A stretch of DNA of 64,000 bases from Escherichia coli (GTDB lineage: Bacteria > Pseudomonadota > Gammaproteobacteria > Enterobacterales > Enterobacteriaceae), in NCBI RefSeq assembly GCF_016026235.1, contig NZ_CP065613.1; one strand, given 5' to 3'. This document shows, piece by piece, positions 44,601 to 49,870 of this stretch; positions within the stretch are counted from its first letter, which is position 1, and the number at the start of each line of letters is the position of its first letter. Position numbers: made by a program.

Positions 44601-47600
44601 CCTGAAAGCTGGCTGGTTAACCTTCGCACCCAACGCGAAGCCTGCGGCTTAACAACCGCCGAACTCGCCAGGCTGCTCGATCTCGATGAAGAAATTATCA
44701 TCCAGTGGGAGAGCGGAGAGTATGAACCAACTATCAGTATGCTTATCCCACTGGCAAATATTCTTGGCTGCGATCCGATGTGGCTATTAACTGGTGAGGT
44801 TACTCCTCCGGAGCAACCAAAAAGTGAGGAGCAGCAACACCATGACGCATCTCAATAAGTTTGCCCCTTATCTCGCGAAGCTCTTCTACGGAAGAACCAA
44901 TACCAATGGTGACATAATCGCCGCTTCGCCCCTCAAGGTACATGCGAACATTTTTATCAATCATTGCGGAAACAGTCTCAATATGAAAACACTTCTGAGA
45001 CTCGCTATATAGCAGAACATATAAGTCAGCTGAGGAAGCCATGAAAAAGTTCGAAAACATAACTGTTCTCCATGTTGATAACTTTGATTATACAAACCAG
45101 GAACTTCTCCCGGAGGTTGTAAAGGCAATAGATGTTGCCGATATAGTGATTAGAGGAAAGAGAATTGTCAAAAACAGGCTCGCATGTACTTCAGGAGCAA
45201 TGACAGAAACAACCTCACAGCAAGATGATTATGAAGGCATTTGTCTGGAGCCTGATTCATTTGCGGTAAATGTTTATCATTTATTGCATGCAACACAGGT
45301 GTTACATACGTCCAGTAATAACGAAACAAAAACACTTGGCAGTGAAATTCTGAATTTTGCATGTGAATATGCAAAAGCCGCTGTTGAAAAAGAATTAGCG
45401 CAATAACAACAAATATGCCATGAACGTTTATCACGGTTTTATCGCCGGGGATTATCACACCCTTAATCCACAGGAGGCTTTATTATGACTTTTATAAAGA
45501 ATATGGCATCACACAAGACCGCCTGCCTTATTGCACAATACGGTGAAAATTACATGCATATTGCCTGCTTATTTCTGCGTAAAGCATACGGGAAATAACA
45601 AATGACACATGAACCCATTAATACATATCGTCGCCGTATAGCTGTTGCGGCACTCCATCGAATAAAACGTAAAACAGGTGGTAATCTGCTTATTGTTGAC
45701 CTTCTGGATGGGAACATTACGACCATAGAAATAACTGAACAGTTTATAAACCAGTTGCTGTTACGCTTTGAAGGTATTACCCGTGGTGAATTGGGCCGAG
45801 TGGAGGGTGAAACCGAAATCCGCACTGCATACCAGAATGCTATCGGGATTAATCAACATACTGAATACCAGGCTGAAACCGGAAAGTTAATTATAGACAA
45901 CCTTTTACAAGAGGTTATTGATTACGCGAAAGAAAAATATATCAGCGGAGGAATTAACTGATGGCTAATTTATCCCCTGTATCTGTTGTGCACGAAAAAG
46001 TGCAGATCGTTATGACTATTGAAAATGGCCAGGTAACAGGTGTCTGCAAAGTCCGCGATGGAGAGCTGATTGCCAGCATGGATACATTCATATGGCTGGC
46101 AGAAAGAGCGGGGTATCAGATAACAGCACCTGCTCAGGAGGAAACCAGTGACATTAACAGCAACACGAATTCCTGAGTGGGTCCACCAGCAGGCGTTGCT
46201 GGTCCTGCGGCGGTACAGATGCCGATGTATATTCCCGCATCGGATACAGCGCAACGGATATCTCAGTCTGAAGGTTAACCGTCGCTGGCGGCTGTTATCG
46301 AAAGACGACGGCCGGAACTGGGAAGTAATGAGTCATGAACGTTATTCGGGGGAAATAAAGAAATGATCGACAACCGCACCGCCAGCGCCATTGACCAGGC
46401 ATTACAGAAACATGATACACCCGTCGGCCCGTTATTTTTTGTAACACGCCACGGAAGAACAAAAAAATGCCTCACCCGAAAAACGGCAATTCGTTACCTG
46501 GCATTCTTTATGACCACCCGCGCTTTTGAACGTTCAGGATTCCGACAACGCCATCCTGACAAGCGTTTTATCTTCAACGGGAATGAGATATGGAAACGTG
46601 GAGAATCAACCACAGAGTATACCCGCGCACACCAGCGAACAATCAGACGACTGCGCAGACTCATCGCCAGGAAACAGTATACAGAAAAATGGTTCAGAAA
46701 ATATGACACATGGAGCGCCGGATATTACGAACTGATGGCAACAAAACCATTCTGACGTAAACGAAATTAACCATGACGCAATTAAATAAGGCAAGCCGAA
46801 TACATCAGGAGGACCATGAACATTTATTTCAGAATAGTTATATCACTGGCAATTATCGCATGTATTTACGGATTAATCGTTCCGGCCCTCATATCAATGA
46901 AGGATACGGTAGCAGTGATTTCTGGCTTTGCTCTGGCGTGTCTGACCCCGCCCTGCATTTATGCCATTTATAAGGGTCTTTCTTTCCCCGGGAGGGAAAA
47001 ATGAAAAAAACAATTGCGCTTGTTTTCGCGGTCAGTCTGGCTGTCTTCGGACTTGTAGGTTGCGATCGCGTTGAACCAGGTAATGTGGGTATCAAAGTCA
47101 ACAAACTGGGCGACGACAAAGGTGTCGGTGAGGTGGTCGGTGTTGGTCGCTACTGGACTGGCTGGAATACTGAAGTTTACATTTTCCCGACCTTCAAGCA
47201 AATGAAGACCTACGATGAACCGTTCAGTTTCCAGATGAGTGACGGCACAACCATCGGCTATCACATCGGCGTGGCCTACAAAGTTGATCCATCCAAAGTT
47301 ACCACGGTGTTTCAGACTTACCGCAAAGGCGTGGATGACATTACCAACACCGACCTGCGCCAGAAGATCGCCGACGCACTCAATCGGCTGGCCAGCAAAA
47401 TGACCACCGACAAATTTATTGACGGCGGTAAATCTGAATTACTGGATGCCGCTCTAAAAGACATCCAGGAAGAAATGACACCCATCGGTATTCAGGTAAT
47501 GAGCCTCTCATATGTGGGTAAGCCAGAGTACCCACCAACCGTTATCGACAGCATTAACGCCAAAGTCACGGCAAACCAGAAAACACTGCAACGCGAGCAG

Positions 47601-49870
47601 GAAGTTAAACAACGCGAAGCAGAAGCCAACATGCTGCGTGCAGAAGCTGCCGGACAGGCTGATGCGATTCGCACAAAAGCCCAGGCCGAAGCCGATGCAA
47701 TTCGTTTACGCGGTGAAGCTCTGCGCCAGAACCCCGGTGTTATGGAGCTGGAAGCCATCAATAAATGGAACGGCACACTGCCGCAGTACATGACCAGCGG
47801 TGCCAACACACCATTTATTCAGGTTAAGTAATACATATGCCCGGTATTACACGCCGGGCTGTCTGGAGATAAAAATGAATACTGTAACCATCAACAACAA
47901 ACAGTTTCCGGTAATCGAATATCGCGGTCAGCGCGTGGTGACGCTGGCGATGATTGATGAAGTGCACCAACGCCCGGACGGAACAGCGGGACGCAATTTC
48001 CGCGAAAACAAGTCTCGTCTTATTGAAGGGGAAGACTACTTCGAATTAGGTTCCGACGAAATTCGTCGACACCTCCCTGACGGTACTTTCTCAAAATTTG
48101 CAGCAGCAGGAATTGTACTGGTCGAATCCGGTTATTTGATGTTGGTGAAATCCTTCACCGACGATCTGGCCTGGCAGGTTCAGCGCGAACTGGTTAACAG
48201 CTATTTCCGAACTCACGCGCCGCTGACGGAAATGGAGATGATCGCTGCAATGGCCGCCGATGCCGTTCGCCAGCAAAAGCGCCTGAGTCATGTTGAAAAG
48301 AAGATCGAAACGGTCACCAAAGCTGTGGAGAACATCAAACGCGGCACAATGCGCGCCGGATATGTCGGTTACCGCCAGGTGGTAGCCAAAAGTGGAATGA
48401 GTGACGCCAAGTGTCGGAATCTGGTGAACGCATATCAAATTCCTACAGACACCCACGAATTCATGACTCCGGACGGTCTGTTGTCTCGCAGGGCTATCGT
48501 CGAGCTTGAGCCATTTATGGCGGCGTTCCACCAAATGATGTCAGAGGCTGAACCACGCGGCACACGCTGGTATCACCCGAAGATGGGGCTTTTCCAGGTG
48601 ATCGGATGGGAGGATAAAGCATGATCATCCAGTCAAAACTTATTCGCGCCGCTCTGGTGTGCGCTGCTAAAAACGACGTTCGTTATTACCTGAACGGTCT
48701 TCACATCACGCCGAAACATATTGAGGCAACCAATGGTTCCGTGGCACTGCGCATGGCTCACGGCATCCGGACGAAGAAAAACATCATTGTCCAGTTCGAA
48801 GGGGGCGTCCCGGCCAAAGCCGAAACGACAGAGCTGATTTTTAGTAAAGAGCCGATCGCTGTTCATCGCGACCAGTTTCAGCGACGACTGTCCATTACCG
48901 GCATTAAACTGGTGGACGGTTGTTTTCCGGATTTGGATCGCATCATTCCGAAAAAGTTTGACCGCTGTACTCACCCGGTGCTCCAGGCGGGTTACCTGAG
49001 TTATCCAGAGAAGATGTTTGGTCGTGAGCGTAAATTTATTCCCGTCCAGTTACGTCCCTCCGGTGACGGGCAAGCGGTCAGAATTCAGTTTGATTCCATC
49101 ATCAACTCAATGTATGGCAATCCTGAATTTGTTGTGATGCCTTGTCGTGATCATGGCGATTTCAACGTGGCTCAGGAGCATCCGGAATGAAAATCGAATA
49201 CCAGGACGCCGCAGGAGGTGAATCAATGAGCTGGCCTGATGCAATCGTAACTCTGGGGATGGTATTCGCAGTAGCGTTTGTTGTGTACTCGATTTGTCGA
49301 TGGGGATAACCACATGTTCGCTTTGATTCAACGCGGGCAGATATACACAGACAGAGCCGGATACCCAGTAGAAATTACTCGCAGTACTGAGCACTCAGTG
49401 TTCTTTCGGAGGATGGACGGACGTACCGGGCGAGTACGCATCGGTGAATTCAGTAGCCTGTTCGAGCATATTGACCACCTGGAATATCACAAGATTCTGG
49501 CTGAAACAGAACAAGAAAAGCACCTGAAGAAATTACGCGCAATGCAAAGGAAGTAAAAAATGAATAAAGCGTTTGAGCTATGGGTCCACCAGCGTTACGG
49601 CAACCGCTACGACCTGACGCGAGATGTTGACGGTTTCTACTGTCGTGAAATTGTGAAACGAATGTTTGAGGTCTGGTGCCACTGCCGTGGATGAAAGTTT
49701 TATGAGGTTGGCATGCAGACAATCATCTATCAGATAACCCCCAGCAAATGGTGTACAGAGAGAGTCCTCATTGCATCAACAGGGCTAAAGCCTGGCACCA
49801 TCGAGCGGGCCAGAAGAAAGTCATGGATGCAGGGAAAAGAATACCGTCATTACGCTGTATGAAGTGGTCA

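What the first reader, a model, noticed from the sequence alone, without database searches (positions are those of the whole stretch)
46816..47831. Translationally coupled small membrane protein and SPFH-domain lipoprotein in the early-left region
A 62-aa two-helix membrane peptide (strong AGGAGG ribosome-binding site) overlaps by ATGA a 276-aa lipoprotein with an SPFH/band-7 core and a long Ala/Gln/Glu coiled-coil tail. Partner-plus-SPFH operons are membrane-organising modules in bacteria; in a prophage early region it could act in superinfection exclusion or membrane-based defence. I cannot assign it to a described phage system.
Basis: partly seen in the sequence, partly recalled or inferred. 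Interest (0 to 1): 0.5.

Follow-up and report, generated by a model that had tools for sequence, protein, structure and literature searches.

The report
Phage two-gene membrane-cage module
The two overlapping genes are real and encode a small two-helix membrane protein plus a lipid-anchored prohibitin/HflK-like scaffold. The pair is a widespread phage module of untested function, also found as genes 19 and 20 of coliphage N4, and it looks like an early lytic-cycle function rather than a prophage defence system.

Summary
A 62-aa two-helix membrane protein (46816-47004) overlaps by ATGA a 276-aa SPFH lipoprotein (47001-47831). Both lie in the early-left operon of a phiP27-like lambdoid prophage of E. 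coli.

What I added:
- The pair is a discrete, mobile two-gene cassette. It occurs in Stx2/phiP27 phages, a P2-like phage, P1-like phage-plasmids and about 10% of complete E. coli genomes.
- It is homologous to coliphage N4 gp19/gp20 (gp20 is 63% identical). Similar pairs occur in rV5-like and other virulent phages.
- In at least 19 of the best 150 family representatives the small protein is fused to the N-terminus of the SPFH protein. The two therefore act as one unit.
- The model (pLDDT 94) has the full cage-forming architecture of prohibitin and HflK/C. Asp at +2 of the lipobox predicts retention in the inner membrane, facing the periplasm.
- It is not a housekeeping HflK/C or SPFH-NfeD orthologue, and it matches nothing in PADLOC.

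No experimental function was found; a 2026 paper still calls its role unclear.

Best reading, inferred only: a split, phage-encoded inner-membrane cage made early in lytic growth, most likely modulating FtsH-type membrane quality control. Superinfection exclusion and lysis timing remain live rivals.

The parts
44282..44310 (+). pL-like promoter (TTGACA-17-TAATAT), the likely source of the transcript that carries the pair. This is context, not part of the cassette.
   Evidence: 10 of 12 consensus matches. It lies directly after the CI-like repressor gene (43523-44218; PHROG 4 and 6201) and a terminator-like hairpin at 44230-44246. No promoter-like site was found between it and 46816 that scores better than 9 of 12, and none lies directly upstream of the small gene.
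46807..46812 (+). Shine-Dalgarno AGGAGG of the small gene, with a 3-nt spacer
   Evidence: Read from the sequence.
46816..47004 (+). Gene for the 62-aa two-helix inner-membrane partner. It is a homologue of N4 gp19 and a member of PHROG 1130. Predicted helices are residues 3-26 and 31-53, with N-in/C-in topology.
   Evidence: No Pfam family matches.
46882..46908 (+). Conserved periplasmic turn motif P-A-L-I-S-M-K-D-T. The family pattern is P-x-[LM]-[IV]-S-x-x-[DS]-[TS].
   Evidence: The motif is seen in the alignment of fused N-termini and in the partners of P88, RCS47, N4/Jura, TH18, Pylas and L099.
46990..46996 (+). Shine-Dalgarno GGGAGGG of the SPFH gene, inside the 3' end of the small gene
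   Evidence: Read from the sequence.
47001..47004 (+). ATGA start/stop overlap (translational coupling)
   Evidence: In 80 related loci the partner ORF ends 0-19 nt past the SPFH start.
47001..47831 (+). Gene for the 276-aa SPFH lipoprotein, a homologue of N4 gp20 and a member of PHROG 200
47001..47066 (+). Lipoprotein signal peptide. It contains the lipobox LVGC (Cys21 codon at 47061-47063) followed by Asp at +2 (47064-47066), the inner-membrane retention signal.
   Evidence: Read from the sequence. Cys21 is conserved in at least 90% of 141 family members. Asp is at +2 in 98 of the 102 close homologues that have a recognisable lipobox. The +2 rule itself is established knowledge, not tested here.
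47067..47627 (+). SPFH/Band 7 domain (residues 23-209)
   Evidence: Pfam PF01145 at E = 6.3e-31. The model has pLDDT above 95 over this stretch.
47535..47729 (+). Long helix (residues 179-243), equivalent to the coiled-coil wall of SPFH cages
   Evidence: DSSP on the AF2 model. It aligns to HflK/HflC, prohibitin, erlin and stomatin cage subunits.
47763..47783 (+). C-terminal motif K-W-N-G-T-L-P. W256 is invariant, and G258 and P261 are conserved in at least 90% of members. It sits in the part that forms the cap in solved cages.
   Evidence: for conservation. The cap role is an inference.
47839..47859 (+). GC-rich hairpin after the stop codon with no T-run. It is doubtful as a terminator.
   Evidence: -14.4 kcal/mol, z = -1.8, and 8 of 200 shuffles fold as well. 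The terminator scan did not call it.

Best explanation
The pair is an accessory, horizontally mobile phage module that encodes a 'split' prohibitin/HflK/C-like membrane scaffold.

How it is probably built:
1. The large protein is exported, lipid-modified at Cys21 and kept in the inner membrane by Asp at +2. Its SPFH domains, long helix and C-terminal cap segment face the periplasm.
2. Like its solved relatives, it probably assembles into a closed multimeric cage that fences off a patch of inner membrane.
3. The 62-aa hairpin, made in step with it through translational coupling, supplies the transmembrane part. In about one in eight family clusters this part is fused to the same polypeptide.

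When it acts: the module is transcribed with early genes. Here that means from pL after induction or infection. It therefore acts during lytic development, not as a lysogen-expressed defence.

Most likely action (inferred): it sequesters or modulates an inner-membrane client. The best candidate is the FtsH-type membrane protease and quality-control machinery, which is what the closest solved relatives (prohibitin, HflK/C) regulate. This would stabilise phage or membrane proteins and keep the envelope competent for a productive infection.

Shown here: the gene structure, the homologies, the fusions, the fold and the genomic placement.

Inferred only: lipidation and sorting, cage formation, expression timing in this prophage, and the client.
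For: Fold and family:
- Pfam Band_7 matches at 6e-31.
- The AF2 model has pLDDT 93.7 and the layout SPFH1-SPFH2-long helix-short helix-tail.
- Foldseek top hits are HflK/HflC (6e-14), erlin, prohibitin and stomatin cage subunits.
- A family-profile search of PDB sequences ranks prohibitin-1 first (1e-10), then prohibitin-2, then HflK (2e-7).

Topology:
- Lipobox LVGC is followed by Asp at +2, which is conserved in 98 of 102 close homologues.
- In the fused homologues a third hydrophobic segment follows two helices. This puts the SPFH part outside the cytoplasm and tethers it to the inner membrane.

The two proteins act as one unit:
- At least 19 of the best 150 cluster representatives are natural fusions.
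- A profile built from their N-termini hits the window's small protein at 49.7 bits (E = 1.6e-14), against a maximum of 8.3 bits for 1000 shuffles.
- 80 of 80 viral contigs with a close SPFH relative have the partner ORF overlapping or abutting the SPFH start.
- Profile-detectable partners lie upstream in P88, RCS47, N4/Jura, TH18, Pylas, Piffle and L099.
- Upstream small ORFs with hydrophobic segments, not detectable by the profile, occur in phi644-2, PaP4, Ccr2, phage 812, L101, L102 and L103.

Early lytic placement in every backbone examined:
- The pL operon in this window and in phiP27/Stx2 phages.
- The early operon between cox and the replication gene in P88.
- Next to ban in a P1-like phage.
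- After the RNAP2 genes in N4-like phages.
- Next to recombination and replication genes in metagenomic phage contigs.

Not housekeeping and not a catalogued defence system.
Against: - No experiment on any member of this clade was found. A 2026 paper on a Schitoviridae phage says the reason the gene is in a phage 'remains unclear' (PMC13239085).
- Cage formation, lipidation, inner-membrane sorting and any contact with FtsH are untested.
- The protein lacks the transmembrane helix and the two-paralogue composition of HflK/C.
- Distant SPFH homologues occur in haloarchaeal viruses. From my own knowledge, archaea lack FtsH, so FtsH cannot be a universal client.
- In Kayvirus the analogous pair lies inside the lysis module (PMC7150955), which fits a lysis or secretion role better.
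- A prophage HflK/C-like protein of Pasteurella was detected in cells and outer-membrane vesicles of a lysogen (PMC9872710). If it is a homologue, this argues for some expression in lysogeny and for a location outside the inner membrane.
- Expression of the pair in this lysogen is unknown.
Confidence: 0.4

Rival explanations
1. Superinfection exclusion or envelope defence. The cage and hairpin, once made, block DNA entry or envelope penetration by secondary phages. They would do this either in the lysogen or during lytic growth, as T4 Imm/Sp and T5 Llp do.
For: - The proteins are located in the envelope, and the cassette is accessory, patchy and mobile.
- PHROG files the partner under 'moron, auxiliary metabolic gene and host takeover'.
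- N4 gp18, next to gp19/gp20, is annotated as related to superinfection exclusion.
- A fused homologue sits two genes from an Acb2/Tad1-like anti-defence gene, in a region of small accessory genes.
- Early-expressed exclusion proteins of virulent phages are an established precedent (my own knowledge).
Against: - PADLOC gives no match for either protein.
- No exclusion-labelled PHROG was hit.
- There is no promoter-like site directly upstream, and the pair sits in the repressed pL operon.
- The family spans phages with unrelated receptors, tail types and hosts, including Gram-positive hosts. That is unusual for exclusion proteins, which tend to be lineage-specific.
- A 276-aa cage-forming scaffold is unlike any known exclusion protein.
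Confidence: 0.2
2. Control of lysis timing, membrane integrity or export. The scaffold stabilises the energised inner membrane, or it organises holin-like, Sec or secreted lytic proteins. The effect would be to delay lysis and enlarge the burst.
For: - In Kayvirus the analogous pair mbpV (a small membrane protein with a basic C-terminus) and mbpS (SPFH) has its own promoter and lies between the endolysin lysK and the secreted lytic enzyme tgl. The authors suggested MbpS aids Sec-dependent export, and they noted that MbpV resembles holins (PMC7150955).
- The partners here are small two-helix N-in/C-in proteins with basic tails, which is the class II holin topology.
- N4 is known for very late lysis (my own knowledge) and carries an rIIA homologue nearby.
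Against: - In this window the lysis cassette (holin, lysozyme, lysis protein) is more than 10 kb away on the other strand and in the late operon.
- In N4-like, rV5-like, P2-like and P1-like phages the pair is not next to lysis genes.
- No holin PHROG was hit.
Confidence: 0.2
3. Lysogenic-conversion surface or vesicle lipoprotein that acts on the animal host as a virulence factor and TLR2 agonist. This has been reported for the prophage HflK/C-like protein PM0222 of Pasteurella multocida.
For: - PMC9872710 describes a prophage-borne HflK/C-like protein of 25-35 kDa. It was found in outer-membrane vesicles, its deletion attenuated virulence, and the recombinant protein triggered TLR1/2 signalling.
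- The cassette is common in Stx-converting phages and in pathogenic E. coli.
Against:
- The family is abundant in virulent phages of environmental and plant-associated bacteria.
- Asp at +2 predicts retention in the inner membrane.
- The pair is in the repressed early operon.
- Any bacterial lipoprotein activates TLR2, so that assay is not specific (my own knowledge).
Confidence: 0.06
4. A captured housekeeping SPFH/NfeD or HflK/C gene pair with no phage-specific role.
For: There are weak sequence matches to HflK/HflC and to the general SPFH fold.
Against: - Scores against the HflC and HflK equivalogs are 25.5 and 22.8 bits, against cut-offs of 134.4 and 159.4.
- The partner has no NfeD domain and no Pfam domain at all.
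- Every context examined is a phage, a prophage or a phage-plasmid.
Confidence: 0.02

Closest known systems
Coliphage N4 gp19 (membrane protein) and gp20 (lipoprotein), with their homologues in Schitoviridae (PHROG 1130 and PHROG 200)
   Same: The two-gene arrangement is the same, with overlapping stop and start. gp20 is 63% identical over its full length, E = 3e-131. gp19 of the N4-like phage Jura (68 aa, nearly identical to N4 gp19) and the window's small protein both match the profile built from fused N-termini, at 34 and 50 bits. Both SPFH proteins are lipoproteins.
   Different: N4 is a virulent podophage in which the pair is a separate unit in the early/middle region; terminators flanking the pair are annotated in the N4-like phage Jura. 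Here the pair sits in the pL operon of a temperate lambdoid phage. Pairwise BLAST does not detect the gp19 similarity. The N4 lipobox is followed by Tyr-Asp rather than Asp. No function is known for the N4 genes.
E. coli HflK/HflC, the periplasm-facing SPFH cage around the FtsH protease (PDB 7vhp, 7wi3, 9cz1)
   Same: Foldseek finds the same fold and domain order at 6e-14 to 1e-13. The SPFH part is predicted to face the periplasm on the inner membrane. The historical link to phage biology, high frequency of lysogenisation through FtsH and lambda CII, is established knowledge.
   Different: Identity is only about 16-20%. Scores are far below the NCBIfam equivalog cut-offs. There is one SPFH gene instead of two paralogues. 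The anchor is a lipid rather than an N-terminal transmembrane helix. The transmembrane part is supplied by a separate two-helix protein. No interaction with FtsH has been shown.
Prohibitin 1/2 cages (PDB 8rrh, 9o9z)
   Same: These are the best sequence-profile match among solved structures, at 1e-10 over nearly the whole length. They have a similar size and the same SPFH-coiled coil-C-terminal layout. They also face the compartment equivalent to the periplasm and partner an FtsH-type (m-AAA) protease (my own knowledge).
   Different: They are eukaryotic and mitochondrial, form a hetero-oligomer of two paralogues, are anchored by a transmembrane helix, and are not lipoproteins.
Bacterial SPFH-NfeD operons such as QmcA-YbbJ (PDB 8z5g) and YqiK-YqiJ
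   Same: An SPFH scaffold is encoded next to a small multi-helix membrane partner. QmcA is a structural match at 6e-8 and a profile match at 9e-6.
   Different: The partner here has no NfeD/OB domain: Pfam finds nothing at E <= 10. The SPFH protein is a periplasmic lipoprotein, whereas QmcA faces the cytoplasm (my own knowledge). All contexts are phage-borne.
Kayvirus MbpV/MbpS (Staphylococcus phages K, 812, MSA6)
   Same: A small membrane protein gene is directly followed by an SPFH protein gene, forming a separate transcription unit in a phage. MbpS is a distant homologue: tblastn gives 24% identity at E = 1e-6.
   Different: MbpV is not detectably homologous to the partner here, scoring 1.5 bits. 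MbpS is anchored by a transmembrane helix in a Gram-positive host. The pair lies inside the lysis module.

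Membership tests
SPFH / Band 7 superfamily (PF01145) | Significant match to the SPFH domain profile | tested here: met
   Pfam Band_7 matches at E = 6.3e-31 over residues 23-209, covering model positions 2-176 of 176.
SPFH / Band 7 superfamily (PF01145) | Cage-type architecture: SPFH1, SPFH2, a long coiled-coil helix and a C-terminal cap segment | tested here: met
   The AF2 model has pLDDT 93.7 with strands at 21-95, an alpha/beta part at 97-176, and helices at 179-243 and 245-255. It aligns along its full length to HflK/C, erlin, prohibitin and stomatin subunits. 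This is met at the level of a predicted monomer only.
SPFH / Band 7 superfamily (PF01145) | Assembly into a closed multimeric ring or cage on a membrane | not testable with these tools
HflK/HflC modulators of FtsH | Score above the curated equivalog cut-off | tested here: not met
   TIGR01932 (hflC) scores 25.5 bits against a cut-off of 134.4. TIGR01933 (hflK) scores 22.8 bits against 159.4.
HflK/HflC modulators of FtsH | Two paralogous SPFH subunits, each with an N-terminal transmembrane anchor | tested here: not met
   There is a single SPFH gene. Its N-terminus is a lipoprotein signal peptide (lipobox LVGC), and the second gene is a 62-aa hairpin with no SPFH domain.
HflK/HflC modulators of FtsH | SPFH part in the periplasm, on the inner membrane | tested here: inconclusive
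   This is predicted from the signal peptide, from Asp at +2 (98 of 102 close homologues) and from the three-segment fused homologues. There is no experimental localisation.
HflK/HflC modulators of FtsH | Binds and regulates FtsH | not testable with these tools
   No complex prediction or experiment was possible.
SPFH-NfeD operon | Partner protein carries an NfeD (OB-fold) domain | tested here: not met
   The 62-aa partner has no Pfam match even at E <= 10 and no NCBIfam match. It consists of two helices only.
SPFH-NfeD operon | SPFH gene adjacent to and co-transcribed with a membrane partner gene | tested here: met
   The genes share an ATGA overlap, and 80 of 80 related loci keep the arrangement. 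This is a resemblance in layout only.
N4 gp19/gp20-type phage pair (PHROG 1130 + PHROG 200) | Homology of the large protein to gp20 / PHROG 200 | tested here: met
   PHROG 200 matches at E = 1e-114. Identity to N4 gp20 is 63% at E = 3e-131.
N4 gp19/gp20-type phage pair (PHROG 1130 + PHROG 200) | Homology of the small protein to gp19 / PHROG 1130, encoded directly upstream with overlap | tested here: met
   PHROG 1130 matches at E = 1.9e-23. The shared profile hits the window protein at 49.7 bits and Jura gp19 at 34.3 bits. Pairwise BLAST alone fails.
Catalogued anti-phage defence systems (PADLOC-DB 2.0) | Match of either protein to a defence-system model | tested here: not met
   The small protein matches no family. 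The large protein has only a chance-level LmuB hit at E = 0.25.
Known superinfection-exclusion proteins (Imm, Sp, Llp, Cor, SieA) | Sequence homology to an exclusion family | tested here: not met
   The PHROG hits are generic 'membrane protein' and 'lipoprotein' families, and no exclusion-labelled family appears at E <= 0.01. No direct comparison with reference sequences was made.
Known superinfection-exclusion proteins (Imm, Sp, Llp, Cor, SieA) | Blocks adsorption or DNA entry of superinfecting phage | not testable with these tools
   This needs plating and DNA-entry assays.
Class II holins | Small protein with two transmembrane helices, N-in/C-in, and a charged C-terminus | tested here: met
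   Helices are at residues 3-26 and 31-53, with a basic N-terminus and C-terminus. The Pylas homologue is annotated '2 TMDs N in C in'. This is a matter of topology only.
Class II holins | Encoded in the lysis cassette next to the endolysin, with homology to a holin family | tested here: not met
   The prophage's holin, lysozyme and lysis protein genes lie in the late operon on the other strand. No holin PHROG was hit.

The most novel reading that the evidence does not exclude
The pair is a phage-encoded mimic of the HflK/C-prohibitin cage that captures or re-programmes the host FtsH protease from the periplasmic side. In phiP27-like lambdoid phages, which lack a recognisable cIII, it would be a functional analogue of lambda CIII. 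In virulent phages such as N4 it would be a general tool for keeping the infected cell's inner membrane productive. It would then be the first viral SPFH cage with a defined client, and a minimal 'split' version (lipid anchor plus a separate hairpin) of a scaffold found in all domains of life. Alternatively, it could define a new structural class of superinfection-exclusion machinery.
Probability: 0.25. Interest if true: 0.7.

Novelty: new variant of a known kind. Interest (0 to 1): 0.45.

Why it matters
SPFH cages (HflK/C, prohibitin, stomatin, flotillin, erlin) have only recently been solved, and what they do to their clients is still debated.

This module is a compact, phage-borne version with two unusual features: a lipid anchor instead of a transmembrane helix, and a separate two-helix partner that is fused to the scaffold in some relatives.

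It is common. It occurs in about 10% of complete E. coli genomes, in Stx-converting phages, in P1-like phage-plasmids, and in tractable virulent phages including N4. Yet the partner gene is often not annotated, and the large gene is often misnamed 'serine protease' or 'transposase fusion protein'.

Because it sits in model phages, its role can be tested directly. That would give a first function for viral SPFH proteins. It could also link back to the classic Hfl/FtsH control of the lysis-lysogeny decision.

Tried and rejected
1. PADLOC scan of both proteins found nothing, so the pair is not a catalogued defence system.
2. NCBIfam gave only sub-threshold HflK/HflC hits, so orthology to housekeeping genes was rejected.
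3. Pfam on the small protein found nothing, so the NfeD-partner idea was rejected.
4. The search for related loci with the 141-sequence alignment failed because it had no conserved stretch. With a 19-sequence alignment it returned only relatives of at least 91% identity. Those were useful for strict co-occurrence but not for distant context. For that I used phage records and metagenomic contigs instead.
5. Literature searches for SPFH combined with prophage, superinfection exclusion, anti-phage, phage-encoded, or FtsH/lysogeny, and for N4 gp19/gp20, found no functional study of this clade. They returned only annotation remarks and speculation and the Pasteurella PM0222 paper. The PM0222 sequence could not be retrieved to test homology.
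6. A pseudo-fusion of the two window proteins was modelled (pLDDT 89.5; hairpin 80-89).
This is anecdotal and was not used as evidence.
8. The hairpin after the stop codon is not convincing as a terminator.
9. The promoter scan found no site directly upstream of the pair. This is a consensus scan only and does not exclude a weak or non-sigma-70 promoter.

Full report
**Observation**

The window carries two + strand ORFs, 46816..47004 (62 aa) and 47001..47831 (276 aa). The stop of the first overlaps the start of the second in ATGA. AGGAGG lies three bases before the first ATG, and GGGAGGG lies four bases before the second.

The small protein has two hydrophobic helices, residues 3-26 and 31-53 in the model, joined by a short turn and flanked by basic ends.

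The large protein starts with a lipoprotein signal peptide (lipobox L-V-G-C21). It has a Pfam Band_7/SPFH domain at residues 23-209, E = 6.3e-31, and one 65-residue helix at residues 179-243.

**Setting**

The stretch around the pair (46700-47900) is 100% identical to the chromosome of E. coli CFSAN029787. There the pair lies in a lambdoid prophage inserted next to mlrA.

A CI-like repressor gene (43523-44218) is followed by a terminator-like hairpin and a good promoter match at 44282-44310. From there to xis and int (int at 51253-52539) all genes are on the + strand, so the pair is about 2.5 kb into the early-left operon.

No promoter-like site lies directly upstream of the small gene. No convincing terminator follows the SPFH gene. 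The late and lysis genes are on the other strand.

**The cassette is discrete and mobile**

- In phiP27 and a dozen Stx2 phages the DNA similarity (about 89%) begins at the ribosome-binding site of the small gene. In the Stx2 phages it ends at the SPFH stop codon, and in phiP27 about 30 bases beyond it; the flanks differ.
- In the P2-like phage P88 and in P1-like phage-plasmids, only the body of the SPFH gene is shared, starting from the Cys21 codon. The signal peptide and the partner gene are replaced together by divergent versions.
- 570 of 5426 complete E. coli genomes have a match, and 241 of the 662 matching places are on plasmids.
- Only one copy lies in this window.

**The two genes form one unit**

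- In 80 of 80 viral contigs with a close SPFH relative, an ORF that matches the partner profile ends 0-19 bases past the SPFH start.
- The small gene is under moderate purifying selection, with pN/pS about 0.3-0.6.
- Among the best 150 representatives of 50%-identity clusters, at least 19 are single proteins of 320-390 aa. In these, a two-helix N-terminal module is followed by a third hydrophobic segment that keeps the lipobox cysteine, and then by the SPFH part.
- A profile built only from those N-terminal modules scores the window's small protein at 49.7 bits (E = 1.6e-14). The best of 1000 composition-matched shuffles scores 8.3 bits.
- The shared signature is a turn motif, P-x-[LM]-[IV]-S-x-x-[DS]-[TS].

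This is a classical gene-fusion argument for a physical or functional partnership. It also fixes the topology: the hairpin is N-in/C-in and the SPFH part lies outside the cytoplasm.

**The pair is not confined to prophages**

- The large protein is 63% identical to gp20 of the virulent coliphage N4 (E = 3e-131). N4 gp19, directly upstream and overlapping, is a 68-aa membrane protein. The nearly identical gp19 of the N4-like phage Jura matches the same profile.
- Profile-detectable partners also precede the SPFH gene in an rV5-like myovirus, in the Schitoviridae phages Pylas and Piffle, and in a metagenomic phage contig.
- In more distant relatives the upstream gene is again a small ORF with hydrophobic segments that overlaps or abuts the SPFH gene, but it is not detectably homologous. 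Examples are PaP4, phi644-2, Caulobacter Ccr2, Staphylococcus phage 812 and three metagenomic contigs. Only Erwinia phage Coenus has an upstream ORF with no hydrophobic segment.
- By tblastn, 710 phage records encode a relative of the SPFH protein, including phages of Gram-positive hosts and of archaea.
- All contexts seen are phage early or middle regions. They lie next to recombination, replication or nucleotide-metabolism genes, with one exception: in Kayvirus the pair sits between the endolysin and a secreted lytic enzyme.

**What the protein looks like**

With a 141-sequence alignment the model reaches pLDDT 93.7.
- Foldseek against the PDB gives HflK and HflC (6e-14 and 1e-13), erlin 1/2, prohibitin 1/2 and stomatin as full-length matches. 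QmcA, flotillin and the major vault protein come further down.
- A profile search of PDB sequences ranks prohibitin-1 first (1e-10), followed by prohibitin-2, HflK (2e-7), QmcA and HflC.

The family therefore belongs to the prohibitin/HflK/C side of the SPFH superfamily, whose members form closed cages on a membrane.

It is not an HflK or HflC orthologue: it scores 25.5 and 22.8 bits against cut-offs of 134 and 159. The partner is not an NfeD protein. The invariant or nearly invariant residues include Cys21 and a C-terminal W-x-G-x-x-P motif.

Among close enterobacterial homologues with a recognisable lipobox, 98 of 102 have Asp at +2. In E. coli this is the established signal for retention in the inner membrane (my own knowledge, not tested here).

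**Mechanism: what is shown and what is inferred**

Shown here:
- the gene pair and its coupling;
- homology to N4 gp19/gp20;
- the natural fusions;
- the cage-type fold;
- conservation of the lipobox and of Asp at +2;
- early-operon placement across five phage backbones;
- absence from defence catalogues.

Inferred:
- the protein is lipidated and stays on the periplasmic face of the inner membrane;
- it oligomerises into a cage;
- the hairpin provides its transmembrane element at roughly equal stoichiometry;
- it is made early in lytic growth.

Most speculative is the client. I favour FtsH-type membrane proteolysis and quality control. That is what the nearest solved relatives regulate, they face the same side of the membrane, and Hfl/FtsH already governs lambda-type development. 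phiP27-like phages with the pair have short early-left operons in which no cIII is annotated. A from-memory cIII query found nothing in the window. That is only anecdotal.

I put about 0.8 on the structural part of this reading, and about 0.4 on the whole statement including a lytic-phase role in membrane quality control.

**Rivals**

- Exclusion of superinfecting phage remains possible, since virulent phages also make early exclusion proteins. But there is no homology, no lysogen promoter and no lineage specificity to support it.
- A role in lysis timing or export fits the Kayvirus placement and the holin-like shape of the partners. It does not fit the placement in Gram-negative phages.
- A virulence-lipoprotein role rests on one paper about a Pasteurella prophage protein whose relatedness I could not test.

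**Literature**

No functional study of this clade was found.
- Authors of phage genome papers note the SPFH gene and either invoke HflK/C and lysogeny or call its role unclear.
- The Kayvirus paper speculates about Sec-dependent export.

**Verdict**

The feature is real. It belongs to an already catalogued but uncharacterised phage gene family, and it is a distinct variant of SPFH systems: lipid-anchored, with a non-NfeD two-helix partner that is fused to the scaffold in some relatives.

It is not a surprise to find an SPFH gene in a phage. The strict pairing, the fusions, the link to N4 gp19/gp20 and the consistent early-gene placement are useful new framing, and they make the function directly testable. 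I score interest as moderate.

Noticed in passing
L001 about 6006-6194 (phiP27); L098 about 3480-3665 (Stx2_95); L004 3230-3466 (RCS47): The small partner gene is not annotated in the phiP27, Stx2a/Stx2d and RCS47 records, although the ORF is intact and matches the partner profile. This annotation gap hides the two-gene nature of the module.
   Followed up: yes
Proteins P0124, P0130, P0132, P0135, P0139, P0145, P0146, P0152, P0167, P0169, P0172, P0176, P0184, P0187, P0199, P0205, P0219, P0237 and P0262: All natural fusions keep a lipobox-like cysteine after the third hydrophobic segment. They may therefore be cleaved and lipidated internally, giving the same two products as the split genes. 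I know of no precedent, and this was not tested.
   Followed up: partly
window 47061-47798, compared with L002 (P88) and L004 (RCS47): DNA similarity to the P88 and P1-like copies starts exactly at the Cys21 codon (TGCGATCGCGTTGAACCAGG). The partner gene and the signal peptide are exchanged together as one divergent block, which may mean the two co-evolve.
   Followed up: partly
Phage records under hits H1-H25, H62 and H64, and protein P0071: The SPFH lipoprotein is variously misnamed 'serine protease', 'bacteriophage/transposase fusion protein' or 'anti-proliferative protein' in public records.
   Followed up: no
L095 218-520: In a metagenomic phage contig, a gene with an Acb2/Tad1-hairpin domain (an anti-CBASS/anti-Thoeris sponge family) lies two genes upstream of a fused homologue of the pair.
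   Followed up: no
L092 1193-2292 (Staphylococcus phage 812): The analogous pair mbpV/mbpS has its own annotated promoter and terminators. It sits between the endolysin lysK and the lytic transglycosylase tgl, inside the lysis region, unlike in the Gram-negative phages.
   Followed up: partly
L094 669-983 and 8461 onward (phage N4): N4 gp18, immediately upstream of gp19/gp20, is annotated 'superinfection exclusion, similar to P22 gp17'. An rIIA homologue (gp33) lies a few kb downstream.
   Followed up: no
window 35564-35874 (- strand): Four tRNA genes lie between the Q antiterminator gene and the holin gene, which is the slot where Stx phages carry stx. The RefSeq annotation of the matching genome lists no gene between the tRNA genes and the holin gene; no toxin search was run. 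ARAGORN reads the CAT anticodon as Met, whereas RefSeq annotates it as tRNA-Ile.
   Followed up: no
window 43129-44310: This is the immunity region. It holds a Cro-like gene on the - strand, a CI-like repressor on the + strand, a terminator-like hairpin at 44230-44246 and a pL-like promoter at 44282-44310. The first pL gene (44364-44858) matches a PHROG labelled 'CII-like regulator'.
   Followed up: partly
window 47875-49190: Directly downstream of the pair lie an ORF6N/anti-repressor gene (47875-48624) and a gene matching a PHROG labelled RusA-like resolvase (48621-49190). This local synteny is kept at about 93% identity in many E. coli prophages but not in phiP27 or the Stx2 phages.
   Followed up: partly
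E. coli CFSAN029787 chromosome (NZ_CP011416.1): The genome that matches the window has three places similar to the cassette, presumably in different prophages. Only one is in the window.
   Followed up: no
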